A DNA stretch of 62,962 bases, counting the filler, from Aduncisulcus paluster (lineage: Eukaryota): the NCBI GenBank assembly GCA_024181965.1. It is 12 parts of 12 records of this genome, joined end to end, with 100 filler letters (N's around TTAATTAATTAA, not from the genome) between each part and the next. Parts side by side here need not be neighbours in the genome. Positions count along the whole stretch, not along the records: positions 59,492 to 62,962 come from BQXS01010174.1; 11 more parts are not named here. One strand, 5' to 3'. Shown piece by piece: positions 12,350 to 62,962 of the stretch. How positions within the stretch are numbered: the first letter of the stretch is position 1; each line of letters begins with the position of its first letter. The notes below the pieces were generated by a model. It was not told the origin of the DNA. It saw nothing but the letters and a program-made list of their open reading frames with translations, and searched no databases. Made by a program: the position numbers and the translations under genes.

Positions 12350-13674
12350 ATGGAAAGTAACACGACGAATTTGGAGGATCCAGAGTTTTGACACGTATCA
12401 TGGGACATCATCGCAAAAAAGATGATAAAACTCTCATTTCTGAATCTGATTTGGAATCCCTCTGCTACATTGGAGAAGGTGGATTCGGGTCCGTCTACAT
12501 TGTAAAAATTAGGGGTGTTTCTCAACCGTGTGTTCTGAAGAAATTGCTTAAAGTAGGTGACAAGAAAGTTATCAAAGCATGCCGTTTGGAGTTTAAGATC
12601 CAAGTGAGGCTCTTTATGAACCCCAGATGTTTCAACCGTATTCCTCGTCCAACATTCATCCTTGATCTTCTTGATGAGAACTACAAAGGGGTGTTCGGGT
12701 TTTGCATGGAGTTTTGTATCGGGGGCAGTGTGAAAGAGTTTGCCAAGAGTTGGTGTGTCTCTTCAAGTTCCTCAGAAAGTATTCCAGAAGAAGAGAGTTC
12801 TGAAGACTCAAGCTCTGACTCTGACTCTGACTCTGACTCTGACTCTGACTCAAGCTCCACTCGCATTAACCCCATGACTCTTGATCCTCTGAGAGTGAGT
12901 GCATTGTGTGTTGGAATGATTGAGTGTCTGTCTGAGGTGTTCACTGCCAAGCCTGACCTTTTTCACCGAGATATTAAGCCCGACAACTTTCTTGTTCGTG
13001 TTGAACCCAAGACAATCGATTGCACCATTGTCCTCTCTGATCTTGGTCTTGCTCAGATCCAAGACTCCATCTCCTCTTCCACGACTTGCAAGAGCTTTGG
13101 AGGTTTATCCTTCTCCAAGGAGTCTAAGGCTTCAGAATCTACTCCTAAAGCCCCCAAACGCTCCATTTGTGGTACACTTGTGTACAACTCATGCGAAGCT
13201 CTTGAAGGTATTCAAAGCCAAGAGAGTGATGCTTACTCACTCGGTCTGACTATCCTCACCATGTTCGAGGGATGTAATCCTTTCCTTCAAATGAAGGTGT
13301 TGCGAGGAATTGAGTCGGAGATTCTATTTGCCAAGAAACTCAAAGAGTTGATCAAAAATGACATGGGTCCAAAACTCTCCAACTCTCGTCTTTTCAGAAC
13401 CTTAAAAACCATCGAAGGTGGTAAGTTCAGGCCTGTTTATTCCTGTTTGAATGAAATATTCCAAGGATTGACAAAGCTGGATATCGATGAACGTATGAGT
13501 GTTCAGAAAGCCTGTGAGAAAGTTCAGTCCATCAAACGTTTACTTCCAAAGATTGGAGAAGGGTGGAAATGTCCATCCATTGATGATATTGTGAAGGCTC
13601 AGCTTGCCAAGCATAAAGGTGATACTGGAAGCATTGTTGATGAAGATTCGATTCCAATCTGGGTGTATTGTTGA
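12350..13674 (+). CDS. Ser/Thr protein kinase, lineage-specific family (kinase 1); likely start ATG 12350 needs one extra T near 12388
   Basis: GEGGFG, CVLKK, HRDIKPDN, DLG, GTLVYNSCE and DAYSLG motifs in ORF 12388-13674. Confidence 0.9.
12814..12849 (+). repeat. (TCTGAC)6 coding microsatellite encoding a Ser-Asp repeat
   Basis: Read directly; lies in the acidic kinase insert. Confidence 0.95.
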
Positions 13675-17155: not shown

Positions 17156-17255
17156 NNNNNNNNNNNNNNNNNNNNNNNNNNNNNNNNNNNNNNNNNNNNT
17201 TAATTAATTAANNNNNNNNNNNNNNNNNNNNNNNNNNNNNNNNNNNNNNNNNNNN

Positions 17256-20795: not shown

Positions 20796-20896
20796 CNNNN
20801 NNNNNNNNNNNNNNNNNNNNNNNNNNNNNNNNNNNNNNNNTTAATTAATTAANNNNNNNNNNNNNNNNNNNNNNNNNNNNNNNNNNNNNNNNNNNN

Positions 20897-23800
20897 GGAT
20901 GTTACAATACTAGATAGGTTCAATGAGGAACAACTCAGAGAACTCCTCAATGTGGCAACACTAATCATCCCATTGGATTCAATATCAGAACTAATCAGAC
21001 ATCCATTGGCGGGATCAGACAAATAAGCACGAATATTATCATCATGAATGGTATAACATGTGAGATCACCATCATCAACAGAGCCACTCGTCTTTGCAAT
21101 GAAAGCACATTGTTTTTCATTCACATCATCAACACTGTTGAATACTTCGTTAAGAAGAATTGAAGGGCAGTGAATATAGGAAGAATCGCAATAATAAGTA
21201 TCAATAACGTTAATAGGGCAGATATTTGGAAGGAAATTATTCTCAATCGCATCCGTATCGGATTTGTATATTGGCAGTATTGAAGAGATAATTGACCAAT
21301 AATCATCATCTTCTTCTGATCTACAAAGAGGTATTAGAGCAATATCATACTCCAGATCGGCAATCTCCAACCAATTCAAGCCGATATTTCTGAACGTGAC
21401 GGTGATGTCAAAAATTCGCATATTGCTGTGGAATGAACAACGATACAATCTATGAAGGGTATATATGGAATTAATATCATAAATATCCATAGAATATGTG
21501 TTAGATCGTTCTTGATCAATGTATAACGATGGTAGTTGACCAAGCGAGGCAATATCAATCACTCCAGAAATATCAGAGTCATTTGAATTAAAATAGTTAG
21601 TATTTATCAAATATTTAGCACCAATCAAAGTCGAAATGTGAGAAGAATTCGAATAAAAGTGGCCACTTATCCCAGCCATCTCAAACTCAGACACGTCACA
21701 AAGAGTCTCTACATATCCAACAGCATCACACACTTTACCCCTGAACAATGGATCTGGAATATGCACTTGATATAATTGATCACATTCATCGCCATACCAG
21801 GCAGATCGACAATCGGATGTAATAATATCTCCTGACGTTTTGACACACATTTGATGATCATTCATATGACTGGGACAGTCAGCATCGGTATCTTCAACGC
21901 ATGAATACTCTCCTTGGTCATAATAATACCCTTCCTCACATTCGGCTGCATAACGGCCAGGATATACTTCATTGCACTCCAAGTGATCTTCGACAGTAAA
22001 AGATCGGGCACAGTCCAAGGAATATGTTGGAACCAATATCGAACATGAATCTCCCGTATATCCATTTTTACAAGAAAGTTGACATGAAATTGAAGAATCA
22101 TTTGGATTGAGTGTTGAGAAGTAATGTTCTTTTCTTTCACATACTTGACAACGGATAGTATCAGAGGAATCAGTGGCTTCAGCACACTCTCCAGTCGATT
22201 TGTCGAGATAGTACCCATTCCAACACTCAACAGCCCATTGATCGGGGTACACTTCACGACACACTTGGTGGTCAGAAGAAGACACAGATGCAGAACAATG
22301 GCATGTTTGGTCAGAATATGTTATAGATGATAGGGTTGAGAAGTTGGATTGTAGAGCACTCACCATTCCTTCGATATCACAGATGTTATTGCCACTGATG
22401 TCAAGGGTTGTGAGAACTCCATCAATACTATCAGGAAACATGGAAGATGTGATGAGAACAGACACATCAGAGATGTTGTTGTTGGAGAGATCAAGTGAAG
22501 TGAGTTTGGAGGGTTGGATGTATGTATCAAATCCTAAAGCATTATCAACAATAGGAGTCAGATCAAGCACATCACTAACAGCACTCAATCCACACCCGCT
22601 CGCAGAGAGAGATGTGAGACCAGAATCGATGGAGTCGTAGGTCACGGCCTTTGCCAAGATCTGAACAACTAACTTATCATACTCGGCATTCTCATTGATA
22701 TTTCCACTCAAGTCATACCCATCAATGTTGAGAGATGTCAAACCAATGGACTCGCCATTTGAATCTGTACCTTGGGCATACTCAAGACCCTGAAGAGTCG
22801 TGATCTCATCAAGAGTAGAAACGGACGAGGAAGAACTGGAAACAACTTCAGAGAGCGACAACGAAGAACATGTCAACTTACTACGCATCGTGGCAACACT
22901 GATGATACCATTCGTTTCAGGGTCATTCCCAGAAAGACAATAATCTTTCAGGTATTGGCGAATATTATCATCATGAACAGTGTAACACTCGCCAGCAGAG
23001 CCTTCCTTAGCAATGAAAGCACATTCTTTAACTGGAGTATCAGCAACACTGTTGTACACTTCGTTAAGAACAATGGAAGGACAATTTGATCCATCGCAAT
23101 AATAATAATTATCCAAGTTAATGGGACAGGAGTTGGGAAGGAAATAAACATCCTTGCTGCTTTGACTCGAATAATGGATAGGGAAAACAGCTGCAATGAA
23201 ATCCCAATAAGCGGTATCATCTTCTGATCGACAAAGAGGGATAAATGCGGACTTACTTGTATTTGAAATATCCAACATATACATCCCAACATTTCTAAAT
23301 GATACAGAAATATCATAGATTTGTTCGTTTCCGTAGATATACAAATATTGTAATCTATTCAAAGTAAACAAAGAATTGAAATCACAAATATTGAGACTAT
23401 AATCACTATTAGCAAAAATATATAAATATAATAATTGATTAAGGGAGGAAAGGTAATTAACCGAAATAGCGGGGGAAAGGGAATTAGCAGATGTGACATC
23501 TGTATTTGCACCTTGGAAAAAAGACAAATTAATTAAATATTGTACACCTTCAAATGACTTAATATGAGTACTACCTACGTTAAATATTACAGACTGCCCA
23601 GCCATCTCAAACTCAGACACGTCACAAGGGATCGCTCCATATCCGGCATAATTACACACTTTCTCCCTGAACAACTCATCTGGAATATACACTTGATACA
23701 ATTGATCACAATCATCTCCATACCATGCAGCTCGACATCCACATGTGATGGATGAAGCTCCTTCCTCAAGAACAGGCATCATATTGGAATGGCCTTCACA

Positions 23801-24085
23801 TACTTGGACACGAATGGCATCATCAACAGAGGCACTCACAGATACACAAGTTCCACTTTCAGTATTAAGTTCAGAGCCACTATCACATGCAGAAACACAC
23901 TCTCCAGTCGATTTGTCGAGATAGTACCCATTCCAGCACTCAACAGCCCATTGATCGGGATACACTTCACGACACACTTGGTAGGATGAAGAAGACACAG
24001 ATGCAGAACAATGGCATGTTTGGTCAGAATATGTTATAGATGATAGGGTTGGGAAGTTGGATTGTAGAGCACTCACCATTCCTTC
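20897..24085 (-). CDS. LRR + Cys-rich/EGF surface protein, internal fragment (partial at both ends)
   Basis: LTSLDLSNNNISDVS and LTTLDISGNNICD LRRs, IPDxxFRxKVC caps, CREVYPDQWAVECWNGYY and CRxAWYGDDC modules repeated. Confidence 0.88.
22184..24085. repeat. near-identical approximately 190-nt internal repeat (22184-22372 vs 23897-24085), period 1713 nt = 571 aa
   Basis: Same DNA and peptide MVSALQSNF.TLSSITYSDQTCHC...YLDKSTGEC twice, with several substitutions. Confidence 0.85.
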
Positions 24086-24185
24086 NNNNNNNNNNNNNNN
24101 NNNNNNNNNNNNNNNNNNNNNNNNNNNNNTTAATTAATTAANNNNNNNNNNNNNNNNNNNNNNNNNNNNNNNNNNNNNNNNNNNN

Positions 24186-28587: not shown

Positions 28588-30747
28588 ATGTTTAAGAATT
28601 GGATATCTTCCTTTTTTAAGAAGCCAAATAAGCCATTATCAAGAGAAGATCATGTTGGGTTTCCACATGAATCTGATCATAGTTCAACAACTTCTATTCG
28701 AGATCACAGTCATAAACCGAATACCACGCGTCATGTTAGTCAATTTCAATACAGACATCACTCACTCTCTCGCCATTCCGATGAAAAAATATTACATTCC
28801 ATTCATGAAGCTCCTTTTGGATCCAAAGATCCATCGCCGCATTCCTTTGGTTTTGCTTCTCCATTGACACCTCCAATATCATCTTGTGCTATGGTTCCAA
28901 CTCGCATCACTCCTCAAAGTGTCCCAAAGATACTCTCACCCTCTTCAAGAATATATTCACGACCTTTACCAATGATGCATCAATCTCCAGACAGTTATTA
29001 CGGATCTCTCCCTCATTCTGATGTATCATCCGCTAAACCGATATTATCATTTAGCCACACACCTTCTGGTTACCATAATCCCATGATGAGTATCTCTCCT
29101 CAGCCTCATCAAAGAGGATGGTTCGATAACATGGCGTGGGGATTTACAAAAGGATTTGCTGCTTTTACTGGTATTAACTTGCAGTCTCCAGATATCAAGT
29201 TGTCAAAATACAATCTCCAACAACAAGAGAGTTTTGCATCTGGAACGGCTGATTTTCGAGCTGCTGAGAAACAACGAAAGAAGACTTTTATTGAACGAAT
29301 CACAATGAGTCCCAAGGCCATTAAACTAACTCCTTCTGATTTACAGCATATCACTCTTGATCTTCAAGCTGCAGATACCGAATACCAATTCCGAGGACGT
29401 GTATCATTTTGTGGGTCATCGCTAGCTGATCTTGGCGAGGTGTATGGACATGGGGTTCGATATTACTTTTTTTTCCTCAGATTTCTGGCATTTTGTAATT
29501 TTATTCAATTTATGTTTAATTTCATCCCAATCATCAATTACTTTACTGCTCGTAAGAACGAATCCCTTGACACCCCTCCATTGACAGAGTTGATATTCTG
29601 GGCACCTTCTACTTTCCCCCATGTATTTAAGTCTTGGAGAGTGAGTAGTTTGTTGTGTATTATTCTTTGGTTCGTTAGTGGTTTCATATATGGATTAGTC
29701 CTTGGAAAGTACAAGGCCAAAGTCCTGGATGAAGATAAGCAGGCAAAGATTGAACACATCAGAGACCTTGTTGGTGATGATATTGAGATATTCGACATTG
29801 ATGCCTTTAAATTTGACGAGGGAGACGACCAGTCTGACCCCTATCTTGCTGGTCAAGAGGGTTTATCGTTGTCTGATGAAAGGCCCGAGAATTCTGGAAT
29901 TGAAGGGATTGAGAAGTTTATTCGATACATGTCATCATGGTTGATATTTCTTGTGTGTCTCGCTCTTTCCGTTGTTATATTATTTTATTTACATAGAATC
30001 CCAAGGACCAATCATGTTACTCTTGATAAAATGATGCCCTTCATTGTAACACTTACTATTGCTATTCTCAATGCCGTGTATAAACTGGTGGGAAAAATAC
30101 TGTCAGACAAATTGGAGAGAAGGCCATCATGGAGTTCGACAAGAAAGAGTGCTCTCATCAAGACATTTACTTTCAAAATGATTAATCTTATGGCTCTGTA
30201 TGCTATTTCAGGTCTTGTGAGTTCCTCGGACTCAAACACTGTTCCCACTTGTCCACTCACTTCCACAGGGCAACAGTTTACGACTGTTATTCTGATGGAT
30301 CTATGTTTGTTTAATCCCATCGAAATCCTTGTTCCTTTGTTATTGTATTTCATATTCAAGAAGGTCGGAGGGTCAAATAAGACTGATGAGGAACTTCGGA
30401 CAAAGTGGGATCAATCTGATGAATATCTTGAATTGTTTTATCGACTTTCTCAAACCTATTTTGGGACTTTAGGATCTCCGTTTATTGCATTGCTTGCTCT
30501 TGTCACTAATTTGTTTGAGATTGGAATTGACAAAGTTAGGCTTTTGTATATCAATCGAGTCCCCAAACGATTGATGAGCAGCATGAAAAACTTTATTATT
30601 TTCTACATGTTTATTATCGCTCTGTGTGCCCTCCTTTCTTACCCTAATGGATCTTTGATAGCTCTTGTGAATCTCTGGAATCCAAAGGAAGTATATCAGG
30701 GGTTTTCCTTCTTTGAAAGAGGGGATTATCAATATTGTTGGGAATGA
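28588..30747 (+). CDS. TMC-like family protein B (divergent)
   Basis: LGEVYGHGVRYYFFFLRFLAFCN, LERRPSW, CPLTSTGQQF..ILMD, WDQSDEYLELFY; multi-TM layout parallels protein A. Confidence 0.7.
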   Translation: MFKNWISSFFKKPNKPLSREDHVGFPHESDHSSTTSIRDHSHKPNTTRHVSQFQYRHHSLSRHSDEKILHSIHEAPFGSKDPSPHSFGFASPLTPPISSCAMVPTRITPQSVPKILSPSSRIYSRPLPMMHQSPDSYYGSLPHSDVSSAKPILSFSHTPSGYHNPMMSISPQPHQRGWFDNMAWGFTKGFAAFTGINLQSPDIKLSKYNLQQQESFASGTADFRAAEKQRKKTFIERITMSPKAIKLTPSDLQHITLDLQAADTEYQFRGRVSFCGSSLADLGEVYGHGVRYYFFFLRFLAFCNFIQFMFNFIPIINYFTARKNESLDTPPLTELIFWAPSTFPHVFKSWRVSSLLCIILWFVSGFIYGLVLGKYKAKVLDEDKQAKIEHIRDLVGDDIEIFDIDAFKFDEGDDQSDPYLAGQEGLSLSDERPENSGIEGIEKFIRYMSSWLIFLVCLALSVVILFYLHRIPRTNHVTLDKMMPFIVTLTIAILNAVYKLVGKILSDKLERRPSWSSTRKSALIKTFTFKMINLMALYAISGLVSSSDSNTVPTCPLTSTGQQFTTVILMDLCLFNPIEILVPLLLYFIFKKVGGSNKTDEELRTKWDQSDEYLELFYRLSQTYFGTLGSPFIALLALVTNLFEIGIDKVRLLYINRVPKRLMSSMKNFIIFYMFIIALCALLSYPNGSLIALVNLWNPKEVYQGFSFFERGDYQYCWE

Positions 30748-34590: not shown

Positions 34591-34690
34591 NNNNNNNNNN
34601 NNNNNNNNNNNNNNNNNNNNNNNNNNNNNNNNNNTTAATTAATTAANNNNNNNNNNNNNNNNNNNNNNNNNNNNNNNNNNNNNNNNNNNN

Positions 34691-37600
34691 TCTTCTTTCT
34701 TGTAATTATACTTGCTATTGGATCGCCATCAGAACCAAGAGTCGAGGAAATATCTTGAGGGAGCTGAGGAATGGATCTAACACTTTCTCCATGATAAGTG
34801 TCATCTGGAACAACGACGGTGTCCTCACAATAACCATCAATCCTATCTTCCACAGCACTACTCTGAATTGTACTGCTCTGACTTGCACCATATTCGCCCA
34901 TTGGAATGTATGCAAACTCATCCAATGTGGGGTCAACATCAGGTTTGGCTTGAAACGTCGATTTGAAATAAGAAGGCGGATTATCAACAATTTGATGTTT
35001 TTCTTCTTCAACAACTCTCGTGTCGATCGCTATCTTTTCTTCCTTCATCGGTAAACTGAATGCATTTTCTGATTGTGAATACATTGGAAGTGGGTTAGAC
35101 GCATCCTCTACCATATCTGACTGAGTAGGAGGATAATCCTGCATTTCTCCTGGAGGTATCAGTGTTTTAGAGAGTTGAACAGGATATATAGACCGAGATG
35201 GACCAGTTTCAAGTGGATGAGGAGGAACAATGGTTGATTGGACGGAACAAGGATGATTTGCTCGAGTCTCTTTCCCATCGTTCAACCCCGTATTCTCTTT
35301 CTTCTGACGGTAGAACAGAATAATACCAATCACACCAACACCAATACAAATTAGCATGACAAAAATAAGGAAAATAATGAGCCCAATTCGATGATTCAGT
35401 TCTTCTGAGCACTGAGTTCCTAACCATTCGTCTTCACAAATGCACAAATATCCGGCACTTTGTTCATCATATCCACAGAATCCATGCCCTGAACATATGG
35501 TCACAGTGGACTGTGAAACACCACAAACATCCAAAGAACACGGAATTGAGATTTCATTTTCACTTGTGTTCCACCCATATGCACACTTACACATCGCAGC
35601 AGAAGAAGATTCATCAATCACGCAGGATCCGTTGCTATTATCTTGTCCACAACCAACGCAAGCAAATGAATTTCCAACAATAGAACTATACAAGGGATGG
35701 GTCGCAGGATCAATACAGGTTCCTAATGTCGAATCGAGAGCAAGTCCATGGGATGCACAATCGCAAGTATACGTTTCCTCATTAATATATTGAGAATAAT
35801 CACCATTGTTGGAAGAAGAATAATCTTTCCCACAAACAAAATCATTACTTTCCCCAGAAGAAATGATAGTTTCAACAGGATAAAGCGAACTGCAATCTGA
35901 ACCATACCATCCATCATCACATTCACAGCCAGAAAGTGGGGTTAAATCATCCAAATCATACACAACAGTGCATAATCCGTGTGAACTGCATTGAACTTGA
36001 CTCTCACAGTATAATTGGCACGCTGGACCCATAAAACTATTCTTACACACACAGACATGCTCAGTAATTTCACAATATCCATGTGTGTTGCCCCCACAAA
36101 CAAGAGATGATCCATTGGACTCCACCATTGGACATGCAGATGCACATTCTTCACCATACCATCCATCATGACACACACAAGAAACAGTATCATCAGTACC
36201 TTCAACACACGTTCCTCGAGAAGCACCACAACCGAGACAATCCAGACGATCCTCGACAAACTCACATGAATCTGATTCCGAGCTTAAGAAACTATCTCCT
36301 CGACAATCACAGTATTCCTGAGAGTCAATAACAACACAAATTTCATTGCTCTCAGTGTCACATATCGATTCATCGCATAACATCACAGTCTGTGAAGCTA
36401 TGGATAATTCAGACATTGCTAAGACACGATTACTGACAGAGATATCTATATCATTCAGGAGCTCAGTACAATCAGATAGAGAACAGAAATGATTGTCATC
36501 AAGATACAAAAATAACAACTCATCCAACTCGAGTATCATTGCCCCAATGAAAGAAATATCACTAAAATCATTGCCAGAAAGATCAAGGAAGACAAGGTTT
36601 GAGAATGAGGGTTGGATGTAAATAAAGGAGGGATCAGTGAGTCCGTTATTCGAAAGAACGACCTTCTGAAGCGTATCAGCAAGTGAAAATGGTCCACTTG
36701 GACATGATCCAACACATTTTGAAAGATAGTTTAACAATGTAAGGAAATCCCTCTCATCTGTGCTGGATGGAGCAATAGCTGGACTATTTGAGATATACAA
36801 GGCCTGCAATGAGCACAAACCAACACAAATAGAAGAAGAGAAGCTTGAAATATTATTTCCTGCCTCCGTGACCATAATTTCGACAACATCAACAATTGTG
36901 GAAATGTTGTCGGTCGTAGTTCCCTCGGGCATTGAGAGAGAGATCAGATTCGAAAGAGATGCAACAAGAGAGAAGTCCTCCAATGCCGACTCGGTTTCGA
37001 ATGAGAGCGATTCAAGCATTTCACAATACTGAATTCCCTCAAGAGATGTCACCTCAGCTGGAATGGTTAACTCAGATATCAGCCCAAGATCTGACACAAG
37101 TAACTGTGATAAAAGATTCTCAGAATCTCCAATACACGCCACTCTATTTTTAGCTTCACAGAGAACAAGCAACATTTCCTCAGAAATATCTGCGATTGAT
37201 GATACATATTGTTCCTCAAACGAACATAATGATCCAGTGTATCCCGAGGGACATTCACAGGAGTGAGAAGAAATATTACAATCAAAACCTCCACATATTT
37301 GCCCCGAGGTATCGTATGGACATGATTCAGAACAATCATCCCCATACCACCTATCTGCACACTTCAATTGGATCATTTCAGAATTGTTATATGTAGAAAT
37401 ACAATCATAACGAGGGTTAAGACAAGAGATCGAGAGATTATTATCCATTCCATCAGGAAACTCTTCACAAGTAATGCCAAATTCACCAACAATCCGAACA
37501 GAGTCACCAGAACAACCAAGATCCACAATCAACTCCTCAGATTCAGAATCAATTCCAATAACTCGACATATTTCCCTTTCAGTCACCGGATTCGGACAGG

Positions 37601-40600
37601 AATCACCCGTTGAGAGAGCAACCAGTGACCGCTGTGTGCCAATATCCACAGACGAGGAGAGATAGGAAGAAGCACTTGAGAAAATATCCTCGATATCAGT
37701 GGCTCTGAGATCAACAGTGAGATAATTGGAAGAAAGTTCCATGAGTATAACAGATTGAGAATTGCTATAAAGAGGAACCAAATCAAGAATTCGGTTGGAG
37801 GTCAAGATTAAACTGTAAAAACTTAGAGAATACAGTGGAAACAAATTATATACATAATTATATGAAACATCCAAGGAGAATAGTTGAGTAAAATCTAACA
37901 ATATATCCAAATCGACGATAGAATTCCAAGATATATCCAATATATTGAGGGAAGAAGCCAAGCAAGAAATGGAATCGAGGGACTCAATCCCATTGTATGA
38001 CATATTGAGGGATAAAAGAGAATTTTGTGAAGCACAGAGATCAGGAACTTTGTCAAAATAAATGTTTGAAATGTCAAGATATTGTAAAGCCGAAAAAGCC
38101 GACAAGAACTCAATTGACACAGCTGATAAATTTTGACAAGATCCAATATTAAGATCAATCAATGAAGCTACAAAAGGTTGAAGGGCTGATTCAATATCAT
38201 TCACATTTGATTCAGAAATATTGAGATATTTAAGGGAAGGAAGGTCCCTCAAGGGAGACATGTTGTCCAAATTTTGACACCCTGTCATATTTACCGTTTC
38301 AAGGTGGGTCAGATGAGCAATTCCATCAATAGAACGCAGCAAAGATGAGTTAGAGAGATCAATGGTTGTGATCTCAGAAGTAATGAATTGAAATTCCTCA
38401 AAACCTTCGACAATATCACTACCTGAGAGGTCTAAACTTGTAACTTTTGTCATATCCAATGGAGACACTGCGCACTCTGAAGGACGATCCATCGAAGGAT
38501 AAACAATATCAAACATTTCCCAACATAACTCCTCATCTTCGAATACAATGTACTCACATGAAGATCCTTTATATTTGGGAGCACATTCACATTCATGAGT
38601 TGACAAATTGCACTCACCATGGGAATCAATTGATGCAGAATACACTCCACACATGCCAGAAGAAGAATCCTCAGGATCTAACGCACACTCTAGGTCACAA
38701 TCAGGTCCGAACCACCCATCAAGACACCGTATTTCAGTCGTATCACCACTGAAGACACAACGTTCATGCAATGGAAGAAGACCAAAACAAGAATCATACA
38801 TCGAATTAGAGATTGACAACGGATTACATTGAATTGTCTGACTTGTTGTAAGATCCTCATAAAATCCATCAGAACAAACGAATTGCCATTCTCCTTCCCA
38901 AATCTCAGCACAAATCACACCCTCAACGTAAGAGAAAGTATCAGAACAGACACATTCATTCTCCTCAGAAATAAATGAATTAAGTCCCTGGAAGTCAGTA
39001 ATGGAAGAGGCACCACAAATGAGATTGTACGAGATATCCAAAGTCTCAAGAGAATCAAGGTAATTCATGATAGGAAAAGGGTCAAAAATAGAATTATGAG
39101 AAACATTCAAATCAGATAATGCTGATAATTGTGCGAGGAGATCCAACGAATCAACGGAATTATAACTGATATCGAGAGTAATCAGATCGTTATATTCATT
39201 CTGAAAGTGCAAAACCTCATATACATCCACAAGAGAATCACTCATAAGTACAGTGTCAATTTGAGTATATAAGGATGATATTTGAGAGAGTGAAGGAATA
39301 GCAGAGCTTGATATGTTAATGGAATGAAGCTCTGAGAGCGTACTAAGCTCAGAAATATCTTCAAGATTGAAATTATTGGAGAGGTCAATGGATGTAAGAT
39401 TCACCATAAACTCCACTCCTCTCAGAGAGACAATATCCACACTACTCAGATCCAATTCACCAACATTCTCAAGTTCACTCTGCAAGATATCATTACATTC
39501 TGCATCATGCCCTTGAAACAAATTACACAGAGCATATCTCAGATTGTCATCAGGGATCTTCACATATTGGCATGCATTCCCAAAATAAGCATCAAGACAA
39601 ATACAAGTATCTGCAGAACAAGTTCCATGATCAGAGCCAGAACACACTTTTCCATCAGCATAGGGGCACAAACTATCACAAGAATCTCCATAATAGCCAC
39701 TTAGACACTGACATACACCATCTGAATTGAGCTCAGCGTGTGTCATACAAGAACAGGTGCCTTCAACACACGACCCTTTCCCACACCTTACATTATCAGA
39801 ATCCAAAGGACATGTAACTTCAGAGCAGTCATCACCCAAATAACCAGAGCGACAAGCACACTGAACCTCGGAATCTAGAGTCTCACGAATCGGAATCATG
39901 TTTTGTTTCTCACAGATATTAGCTCTAGAATAATCAACATCAGTTTCCAACTCCACACAGTCACCATCCACAAGAGCCCAACCCTGCCAGCACTCCTTGT
40001 TCCAATAATCCTCATAAATCTCCCGACAAACCATCCGATTATCCGTCAAGGTACTCTCATCATCACACATACATGTCTGCGTTGAATATACAAACGAATA
40101 TGAATCAAAATTCGTCTGAGAAGTGAGATAATCAACGAATTTATCAATATCACAAATGTAATTAGCATCAATTGCAATATCAATTCCATTCAGAAATTTA
40201 TATCTCAAAAGTCCAGACAAATCCGAAATCATATTGTCCTGCAAACTTAACTTTTTAATAGGCATCTCAAATTTACCCGTGAAAATTCTATTTGACATCT
40301 CAAAAATATCTTCAAACGCCTTAATACCACAAGAAACGAGTGAAAGTTCATCAAGAGTATTCATTGACGTTAGAAATTGCAACGTTCTACGATCTTGGAC
40401 TTTGTTTTCAGCATAATAATCTTCTTTACCAAGATCATACCCGGACAAAGAGAGGATTTGGATGCCAGTCATGAATTCCAATCCATTCAGAGTGGTAATA
40501 TCAGTAGAGATGGAGGACAGATCGACCTCTGCCAGGGTTGTTCTCAGAGTTGGAATGGTAAATACCCCATTATCAGCAGGAGTAAGAGCAGCAGATTCAC

Positions 40601-41625
40601 CCAAATATGTGCGAATGTATTCGTCATGAATTGAATGACAAACGAATCCCTCGTCACCATCCAATTCAACCTTGAGAGCAATGTTTGAACATTGAATGAT
40701 ATCGAGATGTGGGTTATACACCTCATTCAGGGAAACATATGGACAAATTGATTCATCATCAGAGGTACACACATTGGAATAGAAACACGTCGAAGGATCG
40801 GGGAAAGAATCTAAGTGTGGAAAAACACCATTATAGAAAGATTCCAATTCAGTGGAATCTTCTGCGTGACAATTACTGAAAATATTATCCCCGAAAACAA
40901 GAGTGCTGAGGCTTGTGTGCTGATAAAGAGGGGAAAAGTCAAAAAGACCACTCTTTCCAATGGTTAAAATGGTACTTAAGTAGAACAACCCTTTAATAGG
41001 ACTCAAATCATAGAAATTTGGATTGGAACCGTAGAATCCAATATAATTCAGCATGGGTAAATCATAAATTGAATTGATATCGGTCAAACCAGACTCATAT
41101 ATTGAGAGACTCCCAAGCTGATATAGATTCTCAATTCCAACGATCGAATTGATATCAGCAAGAGTGTCTCCCGAACCGATTTCCAATTGTGTAAGTTCAG
41201 CGAACTCAAATATATCAACATCACAAATAACAGCACCATGTCCAGTGGCCTCACAGATATTCTTTCGGACATCAATATCCTCAATGAAGACCTTGTATGG
41301 GGTATCAACACAGTAACCACTCACAAGCATGGATGAAGCATCACAGATACACGTGTTTGAAACGAGATCACAGGTCCCTCCACTTCCGCATATCACTCCA
41401 TCAGGATTTGATGGACATGTTCGCACAGTACACTTGGGTCCACTCAGTCCATTCCGACACACGGCTGACACATCAGAAGCCCCATCTTCCTTAATACATC
41501 GATAACTTTGAGAAGACTCGTGTTCACACCATCGGCAGATCGCTGCTGCGCTATCTGTCAGTGCCAACAGACATGAAGACGATTCAACATCAAAGTAATA
41601 GCCAACCCAACATTCAACTTGCCAG
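34691..41625 (-). CDS. giant LRR + EGF/Cys-rich type I membrane protein (more than 2300 aa, partial at both ends)
   Basis: Alternating internalin-like LRR blocks and EGF modules, TM IGLIIFLIFVMLICIGVGVIGIILFY-RQKK, cytoplasmic tail; frame open to 41625 (WQVECWVGYY). Confidence 0.9.
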
Positions 41626-41725
41626 NNNNNNNNNNNNNNNNNNNNNNNNNNNNNNNNNNNNNNNNNNNNTTAATTAATTAANNNNNNNNNNNNNNNNNNN
41701 NNNNNNNNNNNNNNNNNNNNNNNNN

Positions 41726-44922: not shown

Positions 44923-45022
44923 NNNNNNNNNNNNNNNNNNNNNNNNNNNNNNNNNNNNNNNNNNNNTTAATTAATTAANNNNNNNNNNNNNNNNNNNNNN
45001 NNNNNNNNNNNNNNNNNNNNNN

Positions 45023-48158: not shown

Positions 48159-48258
48159 NNNNNNNNNNNNNNNNNNNNNNNNNNNNNNNNNNNNNNNNNN
48201 NNTTAATTAATTAANNNNNNNNNNNNNNNNNNNNNNNNNNNNNNNNNNNNNNNNNNNN

Positions 48259-51894: not shown

Positions 51895-52222
51895 NNNNNN
51901 NNNNNNNNNNNNNNNNNNNNNNNNNNNNNNNNNNNNNNTTAATTAATTAANNNNNNNNNNNNNNNNNNNNNNNNNNNNNNNNNNNNNNNNNNNNCAAGGG
52001 GTGAATATAGAAAGTAGAGATCGAAGAGAGAATGACCAATAAGAAACATGGCCATCAAAATAGTCAGAAATAGTAGAGAAAAACAACATCATCAATTAGT
52101 TAAAGAAGATAACAGATAGGTAGTCAAGAAACAAAAACAAACAGCTAAGAGGACGTGGGTCTAGAACAGTTATCAATGACAATCAATAAGTTACACCAAC
52201 GACCTTCTTATCGACCTTCTTT

Positions 52223-55676: not shown

Positions 55677-55926
55677 ACAAGAACATATTGATCTAATAAT
55701 ACCAACAATAATACTTTGCATATTAGAACTCGGATAGACCGACTCAATTGAATGAAGTTTGGATATTGACAAATAATTATCATTAGCTTCAGTGGATAGT
55801 CACAACATAATTGGGATTCTTGGATTNNNNNNNNNNNNNNNNNNNNNNNNNNNNNNNNNNNNNNNNNNNNTTAATTAATTAANNNNNNNNNNNNNNNNNN
55901 NNNNNNNNNNNNNNNNNNNNNNNNNN

Positions 55927-59391: not shown

Positions 59392-59491
59392 NNNNNNNNN
59401 NNNNNNNNNNNNNNNNNNNNNNNNNNNNNNNNNNNTTAATTAATTAANNNNNNNNNNNNNNNNNNNNNNNNNNNNNNNNNNNNNNNNNNNN

Positions 59492-62151
59492 TATCTTCCG
59501 ATCTGTCGCTCATCACGACTCTGCAAGGTCTCGAATATGTTCAAGGTCTCGACAGTGAAGTGAATAACATTGGTCTCACCGAGTTGCATCTCGATGGATA
59601 TGATCTAAGTGGTGATGATGATGCCACTTCTTATGACAAGCTTGTTGTCCAGATCCTGTCGAAAGCTATCTCGCATTCCTCTATTTCCAGTGGTCTCACT
59701 GTGTTATCTGCGAGTGGTTGTGGATTGACGAGTGTGAATGATATCCTCGATTTCACTCCCATTGTTTCCGGTGACGACGCCACGGCCCCTTTCAAGCTAA
59801 CCACGCTGGACCTGTCGAACAATCGTATCTCCGATGTTTCTGTCTTCCTTACCGAGGAGAGTATCTTTCCCGCGGATGTATTGGTCTCGCTCGATATCAG
59901 CAACAATTATATCTGCGATATTGATGGCGTTGTATCAGTGTTAAGTGAGAACCTATCCTTGGATACGCTTATCTCTTCCGCACAAACGTGCAAGTGCACA
60001 GCGCCTGTCTCGTTTGCCGATCATCAAGTCTGTCGAGAAGTGTATCCCGATCGCTGGGCGGTTGAGTGCTGGAATGGCTATTATTATAATAAGTTTTCCG
60101 GATCTTGTGTCAAAGCCACCACTGATTCTAATGTTACTCGATGCTCTGTGTGTGAACGTAAGGATAACATGATGGCCGTTGTTGAAGAAGATGGCGAGGA
60201 CATTATATGCGACTGTCGGTCTGCATGGTATGGTGATGACTGTGATATTCTTGTCCCCATAATAACTCCTGTTCCTTCACCTCCATCATCTTTTCCTTGG
60301 CTCCCATGTATTCTTCTTGGAGTGCTGTTTATTGGGATTATTATTGCAATTGTTCTTGTCATCAGAAATTGTCAAAAGAAATCTGTCTCAAAACACTCTT
60401 CTCATAATGTTGATGAATCCTCCTCTTTGCTTCGATCTAAACCAATTGGTGAAACATCGGAGTTTAATTCTTATGATTCCATTCCTGTATTGGATGATGA
60501 TATGTCTTTATTGCCAATCACAACAGAAACCTCTAAGACTTCCTATGTGAGGAAACCATCTGAAGTGCACCAAGCAAGCAAGGGATACAATTGGTTTTTA
60601 GCTGAACATTCTTCTTCTGTCTCTGAGCCAGTTCCTCATACTATAATGTTATCACATGTTCCAAAAGCAGATTCTATAACCTTATCAAACCCCACTGATA
60701 TTGTTCCTCTCTGTATTCTTGGTCATGGTGGATTTGGAGAAGTTCTTCTTGTTCAAGTTAAAGGAATTCCTTTCCCATGTGTTCTGAAAAAAATGGTCAA
60801 GGTTGGAGATGAGTCTGTAATTCAGAGATGTCGAAAAGAATGGACAGTCCAACGTAAGTTGTTCAACAATCCAAAGTGTTTTCAATGTATTCCTCGCCCA
60901 TTATATATTCTTGATCTCCTCGATTCTTCATATCAGGGAGATTTTGGATTTTTGATGGAATTTTGTTCAGGATTTAGTGTTTTCTCATTCTCAAAGAAAT
61001 GGTGTTCTATTGTTGGTTCGGATTCCGATATTGATCTCAAACCATATGAAGATACATCTGACTCTTATTCCATGTCAGACGAAGATGTTTATTCCNNNNN
61101 NNNNNNNNNNNNNNNATGTCGAAAAGAATGGACAGTCCAACGTAAGTTGTTCAACAATCCAAAGTGTTTTCAATGTATTCCTCGCCCATTATATATTCTT
61201 GATCTCCTCGATTCTTCATATCAGGGAGATTTTGGATTTTTGATGGAATTTTGTTCAGGATTTAGTGTTTTCTCATTCTCAAAGAAATGGTGTTCTATTG
61301 TTGGTTCGGATTCCGATATTGATCTCAAACCATATGAAGATACATCTGACTCTTATTCCATGTCAGACGAAGATGTTTATTCCCATCCTTTGGAATTAGA
61401 TCCCCTGAAAGTAAGTGCATTATGTGTTGGAATGATTGAATGTCTCGATGATGTATTTGTTGCAAAACCTGGGCTTGTTCATCGAGATATAAAACCAGAC
61501 AACTTTTTGGTTCGCATTGATCCAAAAGATGGTGAATGTAGCATTGTTCTTGGTGATCTAGGCCTTGCCAGAATTCAAGATACTATTTCTTCTGTTCATT
61601 CTATATCGAAGAAATCAGATGCTATATCAGAAGTTTTGATTCCTCAACATTATGTTTGTGGAACATTGGTGTACAACTCAATTGAAGCCCTTCTTGAGGG
61701 AAACCATTCCCATCTAAGTGATGCTTATTCCTTGGGATTGTCAATTTTCACTTTGTTTATGAATAGACGTCCATTTTCTGATCACCCTTATCTTCGTGGA
61801 GTTTATGATTCAAAAGAATTCATTGAGCATCTCGCATTTTTATTAAAGAAGAAGTTTTCACCTAAACTCTCATCGTCTCCATTATTTTCATCTCTCAACA
61901 CCCTTGAAGATGGAAAATATGTTCCTGTATATCAATGCATACATGAAATATTCATTGGATTAACTCAGAATGATTTGAAAACCAGAATGAGCGTCCATAC
62001 GGCCCGCAAGAAGGTTCAATCAATTAAACCACTTCTTCCGAAGATTGGAGAAGGTTGGCATAATCCAAGTATTGATGAAATCATCGCTACTCAGCGCAAA
62101 CTATACGATTCAGTTGGTTCAATTCAAATTCTTCCAGACCACCCTAAGTAA
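59492..62151 (+). CDS. LRR/Cys-rich ectodomain - TM - Ser/Thr kinase (receptor-like kinase), 5' partial
   Basis: LTTLDLSNNRISDVS LRR, CREVYPDRWAVECWNGYY, CRSAWYGDDC, TM WLPCILLGVLFIGIIIAIVLVI, then GHGGFG, VLKK, HRDIKPDN, DLG; ectodomain to kinase N-lobe is gap-free. Confidence 0.9.
60828..61383. repeat. gap-flanking duplication (60828-61095 vs 61116-61383)
   Basis: Offset 288 around N 61096-61115. Confidence 0.9.
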
Positions 62152-62409
62152 CCTCCAGTTTATTTGAATAAGAATTATTTCTATTTCAATTTTATGTTTC
62201 TTACCGATTTTGTTTTTATCTTTTGTTTTTTTAATCCCTCTCCTCAACGCATTTCTTTTAAATTATTGATAACTTCGTGGCAACCTATTGATGTTATGGG
62301 TTTCCAAGACAGTCCACTGTCTTTCTAGACTTTCTATTTTAAGGATATTATCCGGAGTAGATCTAACCTCCTTTCTTTGGTTTATTTTCCTTCTTTTTCT
62401 CTTCCTATA

Positions 62410-62961
62410 TTAGTCAACTTCATCAAAATCAATTGTACTTTCCTCGCTGTCAATTTCTTCAACAAGAGCATGTCCTGTGGGCTCATTTGAGGGTTCATTA
62501 TGGATGTTGTCAACTTCAACGTGGAATATGGAGGATCTATTGGGAGCTTGGATCACATAATCATGTGTTTCTTGTCCTTCAGAGTTCGAGGATGAATCGT
62601 CTTCATCGAAGGCAAAATCATCATCAAAAGTAAATTTTTCGGTACAACTGTTCTTCTTTGATTGTTCCATCTTTTCCACTTCTTCATCGGTGACGTATTC
62701 AAGGTCAGGAATAGAATCAGTGGCCGATGAAGCTACAGATTCATCATCCTTTTCCTTGGCAAGCTCAGATGTGGGAGTAATGACTGGATCTTGAGACACC
62801 TCAGAACTCTTGGAACATGGAGGGAGAGAAGAATCTAAAGATGGGATTGTTGATGCCCAAGGACAGGTATCGGTCACTTCAGAGGTGAGATTATCCCTTG
62901 TTTTGGCCCTTTCTCGTGCCTTCTTCTTAATGGCCTCAGCTTTCTCAGCCCATATCCTCTC
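62410..62961 (-). CDS. acidic C-terminus of an unknown protein ending ...LVEEID...FDEVD (5' partial)
   Basis: Frame open to the window end (ERIWAEKAEAIKKKARE...), IPDLE motif, acidic tail. Confidence 0.7.
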   Translation of the reverse strand, partial: ERIWAEKAEAIKKKARERAKTRDNLTSEVTDTCPWASTIPSLDSSLPPCSKSSEVSQDPVITPTSELAKEKDDESVASSATDSIPDLEYVTDEEVEKMEQSKKNSCTEKFTFDDDFAFDEDDSSSNSEGQETHDYVIQAPNRSSIFHVEVDNIHNEPSNEPTGHALVEEIDSEESTIDFDEVD

Positions 62962-62962
62962 T

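What the first reader, a model, noticed from the sequence alone, without database searches (positions are those of the whole stretch)
59492..62151. LRR receptor-like kinase built from two lineage-specific modules
Seen: one gap-free reading frame links an LRR + Cys/EGF ectodomain, a single TM helix, a Ser-rich juxtamembrane region and a kinase with catalytic Lys, HRD and DLG. The ectodomain closely parallels 20897-24085 (GYDLSG..YDKLVVQIL.KA..SGLT.LSASGCGL..V.D.LD.TPIV; CREVYPD.WAVECWNGYY) and the kinase closely parallels the soluble kinase at 12388 (CVLKK..KVGD, LDPL.VSALCVGMIECL, CGTLVYNS.EAL, LLPKIGEGW). Known: LRR-TM-kinases arose independently in plants (RLK/Pelle) and oomycetes. Inference: an independent domain-shuffled LRR receptor kinase family in a probable metamonad, possibly for sensing bacteria or prey.
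Basis: partly seen in the sequence, partly recalled or inferred. Interest (0 to 1): 0.78.

Follow-up and report, generated by a model that had tools for sequence, protein, structure and literature searches.

The report
Truncated LRR receptor kinase gene
A free-living relative of Giardia carries a partly assembled gene for a membrane receptor that joins a leucine-rich-repeat sensor outside the cell to a protein kinase inside, a design known from plants but built here from the organism's own gene families.

Summary
The architecture is real, but the description needs correcting. The window is 12 small Aduncisulcus paluster (Fornicata, Metamonada) contigs joined by N44-TTAATTAATTAA-N44 spacers. 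The finding fills most of the last contig, 59492-62962.

The ORF 59494-62151 (+) is already in GenBank as ADUPG1_007200, a partial hypothetical protein. It encodes a short SDS22/internalin-like LRR arc, a 10-Cys module, one strong TM helix, a Ser/Thr-rich juxtamembrane stretch and a divergent but catalytically complete Ser/Thr-type kinase.

Corrections:
- The frame is not gap-free. A 20-N gap (61096-61115) sits between two exact 268-b copies. Contigs of two public runs skip these 288 b, so the true partial product is 789 aa.
- The gene is cut at the contig start, so there is no start codon or signal peptide.

Contigs of both runs bridge the Cys motif, TM helix and Gly-loop, so a chimera is unlikely. 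At least five other gene models carry the same module plus a kinase.

Both modules were found only in A. paluster in the searches run. The kinase's group is unresolved. Repeated fusion is not shown. GC3 drops from 0.48 to 0.26 where a multi-copy ectodomain cassette ends, which hints at cassette exchange.

Verdict: a new variant of the LRR receptor kinase design, of moderate interest.

The parts
59392..59491 (.). Spacer N44-TTAATTAATTAA-N44. It marks the boundary between two unrelated contigs, so the gene's 5' end is missing.
   Evidence: 11 such spacers split the window into 12 pieces
59494..62151 (+). Partial CDS (5'-open, TAA stop at 62149-62151), equal to GenBank ADUPG1_007200. It reads as 885 codons, or 789 once the artefactual 288 b are removed.
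59494..59973 (+). LRR domain (aa 1-160): about 4-6 irregular SDS22/internalin-like repeats, e.g. LTTLDLSNNRISDVSVF and LVSLDISNNYICDIDGV.
   Evidence: Pfam LRR_4 31.8 bits; AF2 model; VIA-align Z 9.8 RanGAP, 9.7 Roco LRR, 9.6 SDS22, 9.0 InlF over residues 1-167
59974..60252 (+). Cys-rich module (aa 161-253, 10 Cys). It ends in CDCRSAWYGDDCD, which has EGF-like C-x-C...G-x-x-C spacing. The fold is not matched to any solved structure.
   Evidence: AF2 pLDDT 81; Foldseek best E 0.31; VIA best Z 3.2
60298..60366 (+). Single transmembrane helix (WLPCILLGVLFIGIIIAIVLVI), followed by basic residues RNCQKK on the kinase side.
   Evidence: KD 3.45, residues 272-290
60367..60711 (+). Juxtamembrane region, Ser/Thr-rich. 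It is unique to this gene.
   Evidence: the 118 aa counted, aa 292-409, hold 23 S + 8 T and run 9 b past this part; only P0053 matches it
60712..61095 (+). Kinase N-lobe and acidic/Ser-rich insert. Gly-loop GHGGFGEV at 60721-60744; inferred beta-3 Lys (K432, VLKK) at 60787-60789.
   Evidence: spacing argument from the PKA numbering (own knowledge); full-domain Pkinase matches in paralogues P0060 and P0064
61096..61383 (+). Assembly artefact: 20 N (61096-61115) plus a second exact copy (61116-61383) of 60828-61095. It is not part of the real gene.
   Evidence: joint 'skips 288' in one contig each of X1 and X2; all 8 of the window's 8 20-N gaps have duplicated flanks
61384..62031 (+). Kinase C-lobe. 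HRDIKPDN at 61480-61503, DLG at 61555-61563, a 44-residue activation segment, GTLVYNSIE at 61660-61686.
62032..62148 (+). Family-specific C-terminal tail (LLPKIGEGW.NPSIDEI...), conserved across the A. paluster kinase family.
   Evidence: consensus of alignment A1
20897..24079 (-). Paralogous ectodomain-only ORF, open at both contig ends, with repeated LRR-Cys modules.
   Evidence: 57% identity over 263 aa
12400..13671 (+). Paralogous kinase with a short N-terminus; no TM helix or ectodomain in this ORF.
   Evidence: 52.8% identity over 400 aa

Best explanation
This is a real but incompletely assembled Aduncisulcus paluster gene for a type-I single-pass receptor Ser/Thr kinase.

Shown:
- An N-terminal part made of a short SDS22/internalin-like LRR arc and a 10-Cys module is joined through one TM helix and a Ser/Thr-rich juxtamembrane stretch of about 115 residues to a divergent eukaryotic protein kinase.
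- The kinase keeps every catalytic motif: Gly-loop, beta-3 Lys, alpha-C Glu, HRD, DLG and GT..Y..E.
- The kinase belongs to a family of well over 100 members, found only in this species in the searches run. Most members are soluble or fused to other N-terminal regions.
- The LRR-Cys module belongs to a second species-restricted family of large repetitive, probably secreted or surface proteins.
- At least six gene models combine the two.

Inferred:
- The LRR-Cys part faces outward. It carries disulfide-type Cys, basic residues follow the helix on the kinase side, and two relatives have signal-like N-termini.
- Ligand or contact binding brings receptors together. The RD-type kinase is then switched on by phosphorylation of its long Ser-rich activation segment and juxtamembrane region, as in other single-pass receptor kinases.
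- The ligand is unknown.
- The present ectodomain cassette was probably placed on the TM-kinase part by recombination at the conserved CRSAWYGDDCD motif.
For: - Identity: the product equals ADUPG1_007200 (P0053), 839 of 839 residues identical apart from the gap region, on a 3471-b contig.
- Domains.
- Physical continuity: in both runs X1 and X2 a 545/549-b contig covers 60204-60748/60752, that is CDCRSAWYGDDCD, the TM helix, the juxtamembrane stretch and the Gly-loop. A 437/439-b contig joins 60726-60827 to 61116-61450/61452. Further contigs run from 61425 past the stop.
- Recurrence: 6 of the 125 family kinases among 156 fetched proteins carry the ectodomain module. 5 of these have a TM helix between module and kinase (P0053, P0058, P0059, P0060, P0064). 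P0071 has none at the threshold used. They lie on separate contigs of 3.5-20 kb.
- Outward-facing ectodomain: relatives P0118 and P0131 begin with hydrophobic, signal-like N-termini. P0154 and P0149 have the module, a TM helix and no kinase.
- Catalytic motifs are invariant or nearly so in the family alignment: R190, D191, K193, N196, D214 and G216 invariant; H189, L215, G258, T259 and E266 in at least 90%.
- Species restriction: all 120 listed hits and 51 of 52 hits are named A. paluster; the 52nd is a EukProt record named Carplike_NY0171. Of 20 representatives named, all 10 with E<=1e-29 are A. paluster.
- Cassette exchange: GC3 is 120/252 before nt 60250 and 138/537 after it (Fisher p 2e-9), with the best change point at nt 60220. 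At 60247 another contig shares 60204-60247 and then diverges into ...TLYKIYVPSS, the start of a further ectodomain module.
Against: - The N-terminus is missing, so no signal peptide or start codon can be shown for this gene.
- The public runs are available only as assembled contigs, broken at every repeat. The link from the LRR part (59492-60073) to the TM-kinase part passes three contig breaks with 30-b overlaps.
- The LRR contig has about four times the per-contig depth of the kinase contigs (4818 against 1234-1320 in X1). So which of several near-identical cassettes lies upstream of this TM helix is not directly read. The tool warns that its depths are not copy numbers.
- Transcription is not shown.
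- No relative of the kinase or ectodomain has been studied, and no activity, location or ligand is known.
- The TM helix and topology rest on a hydropathy scale and the positive-inside rule only.
Confidence: 0.75

Rival explanations
1. Mis-assembly: the short-read assembler wrongly joined an LRR-Cys repeat contig to an unrelated TM-kinase gene at a shared motif, so no such fusion protein exists.
For: - The genome is a fragmented Illumina-only MaSuRCA assembly with an N50 of 4.6 kb (paper PMC9933649, main text read).
- The assembly graph branches at 60204-60247.
- GC3 steps at the same place.
- The contig starts in a repeat and already holds one proven artefact.
Against: - A single unbranched contig in each of two runs carries 44 b of the ectodomain's terminal motif (CDCRSAWYGDDCD) straight into the TM helix, juxtamembrane stretch and Gly-loop. 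Its depth (1254) matches the other single-copy pieces (1168-1320).
- Five other gene models on other contigs show the same ectodomain module followed by a kinase, four of them with a TM helix in between.
Confidence: 0.04
2. The gene is real, but it is a decaying or non-signalling copy, such as a pseudogene or a fragment left by repeat turnover, and not a working receptor.
For: - Only a partial gene is seen, with no start.
- The family is large and turns over quickly.
- This kinase has the longest end branch among the six receptor-type rows: 0.83 against a median of 0.21 for all rows.
- The product is 53% identical to the window's paralogue at 12400-13671, and 58% to its nearest row in the tree.
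Against: - 789 codons are open, with no stop or frameshift once the artefact is removed.
- All catalytic motifs are intact.
- The Cys pattern and LRR scaffold residues are conserved against the paralogues.
Confidence: 0.08
3. The kinase is a fast-evolving offshoot of the TKL group (RIPK/IRAK/RLK-Pelle-like). The receptor would then descend from an old receptor-kinase stock and would not be an independent invention on an orphan kinase.
For: - This gene's C-lobe matches RIPK1 best among solved structures (E 4.5e-6, 110 residues), including a shared DLGLA motif.
- RIPK1 also appears in the family profile's top hits at about 7e-10.
- TKL kinases exist in the metamonad Trichomonas (PMC3218828, passages).
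Against: - The family profile's best hits are non-TKL: STK38 4.8e-13, CDPK1 4e-12, Cbk1 and HRI. All lie within a few orders of magnitude of one another.
- No IRAK or plant RLK chain is among the 60 shown of 375 hits.
- Pfam Pkinase outscores PK_Tyr_Ser-Thr in every member tested: 55.9 against 20.6, 63.6 against 19.0, 61.6 against 37.1 bits.
- The catalytic loop is HRDIKPDN, the Ser/Thr consensus form (own knowledge).
Confidence: 0.12

Closest known systems
Plant LRR receptor-like kinases (RLK/Pelle family, e.g. BRI1, FLS2, CLV1; named from own knowledge)
   Same: Overall design: extracellular LRRs, one TM helix, a juxtamembrane stretch and a cytoplasmic RD-type Ser/Thr kinase. The plant family also has kinase-less LRR-TM relatives (RLP-like; here P0154 and P0149) and soluble kinase relatives.
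   Different: - There are only about 4-6 irregular SDS22/internalin-like repeats plus a 10-Cys module, not 20 or more plant-specific 24-residue repeats.
- The kinase shows no specific affinity to RLK/Pelle/IRAK.
- Pfam PK_Tyr_Ser-Thr stays below its cut-off.
- The family-specific tail LLPKIGEGW has no plant counterpart.
Non-plant LRR receptor kinases of oomycetes, Ectocarpus, Chlorella and Monosiga (Dievart et al. 2011, PMC3268121; abstract and passages read)
   Same: These are lineage-specific clades in which LRRs and a receptor kinase were joined independently, 'at least four times'. They expand and change domain organisation within a lineage.
   Different: - Those kinases are placed by the authors in the 'receptor kinase group'. 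This kinase's group is unresolved.
- The terms Giardia, Trichomonas, Naegleria, Entamoeba and 'Excavat' have 0 occurrences in that paper's main text, so no metamonad case is described there.
- The authors searched for EGF and other ectodomain types joined to oomycete RKs and found none. Here a Cys-rich module follows the LRRs.
[quoted passage not shown]
   Same: A protist-specific expansion of single-pass receptor Ser/Thr-type kinases with Cys-rich ectodomains, thought to sense the environment or prey.
   Different: It is a different supergroup (Amoebozoa), with no LRR arc. No sequence relationship was detected in any search here.
Giardia and Spironucleus kinomes (Manning et al. 2011, PMC3218828; Xu et al. 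2014, PMC3916229; passages read)
   Same: They belong to the same major lineage (Fornicata), and large lineage-specific kinase expansions are typical there (198 NEKs in Giardia).
   Different: Giardia is reported to have 'no receptor kinases' and no TKL or TK kinases. A. paluster has at least six LRR-Cys module/kinase fusions, five with a predicted TM helix between the parts, and several multi-pass TM-kinase fusions.

Membership tests
Eukaryotic protein kinase superfamily (Pfam Pkinase PF00069), catalytically competent | Profile match above the curated cut-off | tested here: met
   55.9 bits against a cut-off of 31.7. Paralogues match profile positions 4-259 of 263.
Eukaryotic protein kinase superfamily (Pfam Pkinase PF00069), catalytically competent | Gly-loop, beta-3 Lys, alpha-C Glu, HRD Asp, Asn of the catalytic loop, DxG Asp, and Glu of the APE-equivalent | tested here: met
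   GHGGFGEV, VLKK (K432, 15 residues after the loop Val as in PKA; own knowledge), RKEW, HRDIKPDN, DLG and GTLVYNSIE are read. These positions are invariant or at least 90% conserved in A1. The N-lobe assignment is by pattern: solved-structure matches to the N-lobe alone are weak (E 0.24).
RLK/Pelle-IRAK receptor kinases (TKL group) | Kinase domain nests within the RLK/Pelle/IRAK clade | tested here: inconclusive
   No reference phylogeny was possible. No IRAK or plant RLK chain is among the 60 shown of 375 PDB profile hits. The own C-lobe's best hit is RIPK1 (TKL) at 4.5e-6. Pkinase outscores PK_Tyr_Ser-Thr.
LRR receptor kinase architecture (a convergent class, not a clade) | LRR domain N-terminal of the membrane span | tested here: met
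   LRR_4 31.8 bits against 27. LRR solenoid matches at Z 9.8-9.0, rmsd 2.9-3.7, 112-133 residues aligned. Foldseek alone gave no E<=0.001.
LRR receptor kinase architecture (a convergent class, not a clade) | Exactly one TM helix between ectodomain and kinase | tested here: met
   One segment, KD 3.45, residues 272-290. This is a hydropathy scale only; no dedicated topology predictor was available.
LRR receptor kinase architecture (a convergent class, not a clade) | Signal peptide and extracellular exposure of the LRRs | not testable with these tools
   The 5' end is cut by the contig end. The only indirect evidence is signal-like N-termini in relatives P0118 and P0131 and basic residues after the helix.
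EGF-like domain | Pfam EGF profile match or an EGF fold | tested here: inconclusive
   No EGF family at E<=0.1. For the model of residues 161-253 (pLDDT 81), Foldseek's best match is E 0.31 (MSP1-19 double EGF) and VIA's best is Z 3.2 (Pfs25). Only the last three Cys show EGF-like C-x-C-x5-G-x2-C spacing.

The most novel reading that the evidence does not exclude
A. paluster has independently evolved a receptor-kinase system that runs on cassette exchange. Near-identical, multi-copy LRR-Cys cassettes, kept alike by gene conversion, are recombined at the conserved C-x-C...YGDDC motif onto TM-kinase parts drawn from a huge orphan kinase family. This would give a free-living bacterivore a diversifiable repertoire of surface sensors that its parasitic relative Giardia lacks altogether.
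Probability: 0.2. Interest if true: 0.7.

Novelty: new variant of a known kind. Interest (0 to 1): 0.45.

Why it matters
The joining of LRRs to a receptor kinase is a textbook case of convergent domain assembly: plants, oomycetes, a brown alga, a green alga and a choanoflagellate (PMC3268121). A case in Fornicata would add a deep-branching anaerobic lineage.

It would use a kinase that cannot yet be placed in any receptor-kinase group. It would also contrast with Giardia, which is reported to have no receptor kinases (PMC3218828). That bears on what was lost in the move from free-living to parasitic life.

None of the paper searches returned a paper describing receptor kinases in this lineage.

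On the practical side, the GenBank model of this gene carries an artefactual internal duplication, and every 20-N gap in this window hides a duplicated flank. Anyone using this assembly should know that.

Tried and rejected
- Whole-genome census: no genome is held for this window. Counts therefore come from fetched proteins only.
- RNA evidence: no RNA holder listed. X2's kind is a guess, so I do not count it as evidence of transcription.
- Independent transcript for the junction: a search with residues 225-420 (Cys motif to Gly-loop) among proteins of 293-935 aa found only P0053 itself, plus a weak ectodomain match to P0085.
- Repeated fusion: with 81 kinase rows, holding the six receptor-type kinases together was rejected (p-AU 0.0086, lnL 162.6 lower). 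But that set held 36 rows of unknown architecture. A further row scored there as non-receptor, P0004, is an N-terminally cut fragment that shares an intracellular region with receptor-type P0071.
- Repeated fusion, strict set: with 6 receptor-type rows and 34 strictly non-receptor rows (39 rows dropped), the tree still needs 5 changes. One clade is no longer rejected (p-AU 0.45, lnL 7.6 lower). I therefore drop the claim of several independent fusions. Both trees are quick LG+G4 searches.
- Kinase group by similarity: mixed weak hits only.
- Ectodomain relatives outside the species: the ESM Atlas gave only generic LRR/EGF leads at 0.80-0.84, below the 0.9 level.
- Fold of the Cys module: nothing significant.
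- Earlier notes of this scan: none on this genome or sequence. The word search returned other genomes only.
- One search was a wasted pattern search.
- Supplementary tables could not be seen. These include the LRR protein lists of PMC11437800 and the kinome tables of PMC3916229 and PMC3218828. They might list related proteins.
Full report
**What the window is**

The 62,962-b window is not one molecule. Eleven spacers of the form N44-TTAATTAATTAA-N44 cut it into 12 pieces, and eight further 20-N gaps lie inside pieces. The finding sits on the last piece, 59492-62962 (3471 b).

Protein searches name the organism. All 120 listed hits of the 137, and 51 of the 52 hits, are Aduncisulcus paluster. 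The 52nd is a EukProt record named Carplike_NY0171. A. paluster is a free-living fornicate metamonad.

The best hit, P0053 (ADUPG1_007200, 'hypothetical protein, partial', 839 aa, on a contig of 3471 b), is this very gene. The genome note (PMC9933649, main text read) describes an Illumina-only MaSuRCA assembly with an N50 of 4.6 kb, annotated with Braker2.

**Checking the observation**

A frame is open from 59494 to the TAA stop at 62149-62151. It holds the following parts.
- An LRR region: Pfam LRR_4, 31.8 bits against a cut-off of 27, residues 101-145.
- A module with 10 Cys in residues 161-253.
- One strongly hydrophobic segment, Kyte-Doolittle 3.45 over residues 272-290, followed by RNCQKK.
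- A juxtamembrane stretch with 23 Ser and 8 Thr in 118 residues.
- A kinase: Pkinase, 55.9 bits against a cut-off of 31.7.
- The kinase motifs GHGGFGEV, VLKK, HRDIKPDN, DLG and GTLVYNSIE.

The two paralogies are real.
- The ectodomain is 57% identical over 263 aa to the ORF at 20897-24079(-).
- The kinase is 52.8% identical over 400 aa to the kinase at 12400-13671.
- The kinase is 36% identical to the next kinase, at 13943-15115.

First, the frame is not gap-free.
- 20 N lie at 61096-61115, in the middle of the kinase.
- The 268 b before the gap (60828-61095) are repeated exactly after it (61116-61383).
- 268 + 20 = 288 b, or 96 codons, so the frame happens to stay open.
- In both public runs that hold this sequence, one contig joins 60827 directly to 61116, 'skips 288'.
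- All 8 of the window's 8 20-N gaps have duplicated flanks of 180-403 b, three of them exact.

This is therefore a systematic scaffolding artefact. The real partial product has 789 residues, not 885. The GenBank model spliced across the gap and still keeps about 50 duplicated residues.

Second, 59492 is the first base of a contig, not a gene start. The N-terminus, and any signal peptide, is missing.

**Is the fusion physically real?**

The runs are available only as assembled contigs, which break at every repeat. Even so, several things hold in both X1 and X2.
- One unbranched contig of 545/549 b covers 60204-60748/60752. It runs from the ectodomain's closing motif CDCRSAWYGDDCD through the TM helix and juxtamembrane stretch into the Gly-loop.
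- A second contig runs from 60726 across the joint to 61450/61452.
- A third runs from 61425 past the stop codon.
- The per-contig depths of these pieces in X1 agree with one another (1254, 1321, 1235).

Upstream, the LRR piece 59492-60073 and the piece 60124-60233 have about four times that depth (4818 and 5000). A short piece between them (60044-60153) is back at 1168. At 60247 a second contig of depth 3645 shares 60204-60247 and then diverges into a sequence reading ...TLYKIYVPSS. That is how internal ectodomain modules continue in the paralogues (DQLYQVYIPD).

My reading is an inference, because the tool warns that its depths are not copy numbers. The LRR-Cys cassette seems to exist in about four near-identical copies. 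One copy runs into the TM-kinase and the others run into a further module. Those copies may be tandem modules of this same gene, which would also explain why the contig ends here. Because the copies are identical over 59492-60073, the protein sequence given for that part holds whichever copy lies upstream.

Transcription is not shown. No listed run is on record as RNA, and X2's kind is a guess.

**Recurrence of the architecture**

Among 156 fetched family proteins, 125 carry the kinase and 37 carry the ectodomain module. Six carry both: P0053, P0058, P0059, P0060, P0064 and P0071.
- Five of the six have a predicted TM helix between the two parts. P0071 has none at the threshold used.
- They come from different contigs of 3.5-20 kb.
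- None of the further 91 representatives (P0157-P0247) adds another such fusion.

Most ectodomain-bearing models are fragments open at both ends, as expected for repeats in a short-read assembly.
- Two (P0118, P0131) start with hydrophobic, signal-like N-termini.
- Two (P0154, P0149) have the module and a TM helix but no kinase.

The kinase itself is promiscuous.
- 67 of the 125 have 150 aa or more upstream of the kinase, mostly without any TM helix.
- Several have 11 or more predicted TM segments before the kinase: P0130, P0139, P0167 and P0225.
- The source annotations also list fusions with small-GTPase, PARG-like and RRM domains.

**What the parts are**

*LRR arc.* An AF2 model of residues 1-259 (23-row alignment; pLDDT 74, pTM 0.75) aligns over residues 1-167 to LRR solenoids. 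The matches are RanGAP Z 9.8, Roco LRR 9.7, SDS22 9.6, LRRK2 9.3, InlF 9.0 and LANP 9.0, all tied within 1. Foldseek alone gave nothing at E<=0.001; its best match was InlB at 0.026. It is a short SDS22/internalin-class LRR arc. No closer family can be named.

*Cys module.* Modelled alone (pLDDT 81), it has no significant structural match. Foldseek's best is E 0.31 (MSP1-19) and VIA's best is Z 3.2 (Pfs25). The weak rows are mostly double-EGF and TNFR-type Cys-rich domains. 'EGF-like' is therefore a lead only.

*Kinase.* It is an RD kinase with the Ser/Thr-type catalytic loop HRDIKPDN, DLG in place of DFG, and a 44-residue Ser-rich activation segment. It has an acidic/Ser-rich insert before helix E and a conserved family-specific tail, LLPKIGEGW.CPSIDEI. 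The beta-3 Lys is assigned to K432 of VLKK by its spacing from the Gly-loop, 15 residues as in PKA (own knowledge). Solved-structure matches to the N-lobe alone are too weak to decide (E 0.24).

**Kinase group and range**

A 22-sequence profile of the family was run against 1.84 billion cluster representatives. It finds 119 proteins at E<=1e-30, after which scores fall to those of generic kinases.

Twenty representatives were then named.
- All 10 with E<=1e-29 are A. paluster.
- The 10 weaker ones are 5 further A. paluster kinases, 4 oribatid-mite proteins and 1 protein named only 'serine/threonine protein kinase'.

Against solved structures the profile's best hits are STK38 (4.8e-13), CDPK1, Cbk1, HRI, RIPK1, PAK1 and Aurora, all within about four orders of magnitude. 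This gene's own C-lobe hits RIPK1 best, but weakly (4.5e-6), helped by a shared DLGLA. Pkinase outscores PK_Tyr_Ser-Thr in all members tested.

So the family is an orphan expansion whose group is unresolved. It shows no specific tie to RLK/Pelle/IRAK, but a diverged TKL origin is not excluded.

**Was it 'domain-shuffled'?**

Two lines of evidence bear on this.

*(a) Kinase tree.* On a tree of 81 family kinases the six receptor-type rows are scattered, and holding them together was rejected (p-AU 0.0086). That set was unsound, however.
- 36 of its rows were of unknown architecture.
- A further row scored there as non-receptor, P0004, is an N-terminally cut fragment sharing an intracellular region with receptor-type P0071.
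- With only the 6 receptor-type rows and 34 rows that start with Met and have at least 150 aa of non-TM, non-ectodomain sequence upstream (39 rows dropped), one clade is not rejected (p-AU 0.45).

Repeated independent fusion is therefore not shown.

*(b) Codon composition.* Within this gene the third-position G+C is 120/252 up to nt 60249 and 138/537 afterwards (Fisher p 2e-9). The best change point is at nt 60220. That is inside the 44 b where the multi-copy cassette ends and the unique TM-kinase begins.

The two halves thus have different recent histories. This fits replacement of the ectodomain by recombination or gene conversion at the conserved CRSAWYGDDCD motif. It is an inference from composition and graph shape, not a demonstrated event.

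**Most likely working**

I read the gene as a type-I single-pass receptor kinase.
- The LRR arc and disulfide-rich module, probably in several tandem cassettes, are exposed at the cell surface and bind an unknown ligand or surface.
- Clustering of receptors brings the cytoplasmic RD kinases together.
- Phosphorylation of the Ser-rich activation segment and juxtamembrane stretch switches signalling on.

The domain order, the intact motifs and the physical continuity are shown. Topology, activation mode and ligand are inferred by analogy with other single-pass receptor kinases.

**Comparison and novelty**

The design matches plant LRR-RLKs and the independently assembled LRR-RKs of oomycetes, Ectocarpus, Chlorella and Monosiga (PMC3268121, abstract and passages). 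That paper's main text has no occurrence of Giardia, Trichomonas, Naegleria, Entamoeba or 'Excavat'. For Giardia, Manning et al. concluded that it has 'no receptor kinases' and no TKL kinases (PMC3218828, passages).

Several full-text searches were run.
- 'receptor kinase' + 'leucine-rich repeat' + 'Metamonada': 0 papers.
- 'receptor kinases' + 'metamonad': 3 papers; the 2 listed are on other subjects by their titles and abstract openings.
- 'Aduncisulcus' + 'protein kinase': 2 papers, on other subjects by their titles and abstract openings.
- 'kinome' + 'Fornicata': 10 papers.
- 'Kipferlia' + 'kinase' + 'leucine-rich': 1 paper, which counts Cys-rich and LRR surface proteins; the passages seen do not mention kinase fusions.

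None of these searches returned a paper describing such receptors in this lineage. Supplementary tables could not be read.

The gene itself is already deposited as a hypothetical protein. I rate it a new variant of a known kind, of moderate interest. The evidence rests on a fragmentary assembly, a truncated gene and no functional data.

Noticed in passing
window 1-62962; spacers at 11613-11712, 17156-17255, 20797-20896, 24086-24185, 34591-34690, 41626-41725, 44923-45022, 48159-48258, 51895-51994, 55827-55926, 59392-59491: The window is a chain of 12 unrelated small contigs joined by N44-TTAATTAATTAA-N44 spacers. Neighbourhood across a spacer means nothing.
   Followed up: yes
20-N gaps at 1787, 28019, 31393, 43457, 46500, 50123, 57667, 61096: All 8 of the 8 20-N gaps have the sequence before the gap repeated after it, over 180-403 b. 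Three are exact: 288, 221 and 268 b. Contig ends that overlap were scaffolded instead of merged, so ORFs crossing these gaps carry false internal duplications.
   Followed up: partly
window 60204-60250: GC3 falls from 0.48 to 0.26, with the best change point at nt 60220 (p 2e-9). This is exactly where a contig of about four times the depth (the LRR-Cys cassette) ends and a second contig branches off into another module. Cassette exchange is my reading. It is not proven.
   Followed up: partly
P0053 (GenBank model of this gene): The deposited protein was spliced across the N gap and still holds about 50 residues twice (GDFGFLMEF...SMSDED).
   Followed up: yes
P0130, P0139, P0167, P0225 (A. paluster proteins, not in the window): Kinases of the same family, or in P0225's case a more distant kinase, sit behind 11 or more predicted TM segments. 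These are polytopic membrane-kinase fusions of unknown kind. Pfam sees only the kinase in the two tested, P0130 and P0139.
   Followed up: no
P0064, P0071, P0004 (not in the window): This receptor-type subgroup has one or two copies of an unnamed module of about 150 residues (...MKGAYIC...YEF..PE..YEW.F..IDL..VVLCEIEGKG...) between the TM helix and the kinase. Pfam gives no match for it in P0064.
   Followed up: no
window 34692-41567 (-): An ORF of at least 2292 aa fills a whole contig. It has LRR_4/LRR_8 repeats and teneurin-like EGF repeats, so it is another giant LRR+EGF putative surface protein. Its relation to the ectodomain module was not tested.
   Followed up: no
window 25032-27350 (-) and 28588-30744 (+): Two divergently oriented ORFs on one contig both match TMC/anoctamin-type channel or scramblase profiles (TMC 1.4e-11; Anoctamin 1.1e-13).
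   Followed up: no
window 12400-13671 (+) and 13943-15115 (+): Two kinases of the family lie head to tail on one contig. They are 53% and 36% identical to the finding's kinase.
   Followed up: partly
window 59880: Both public runs read G where the window has A. The change is synonymous (GTA to GTG, Val) and lies inside the multi-copy cassette.
   Followed up: yes
P0223, P0229, P0230, P0231: Among the best non-family hits of the kinase profile are four proteins of oribatid mites (Oppiella, Medioppia, Oppia), at E about 1e-22 to 1e-18. The reason is unknown.
   Followed up: no
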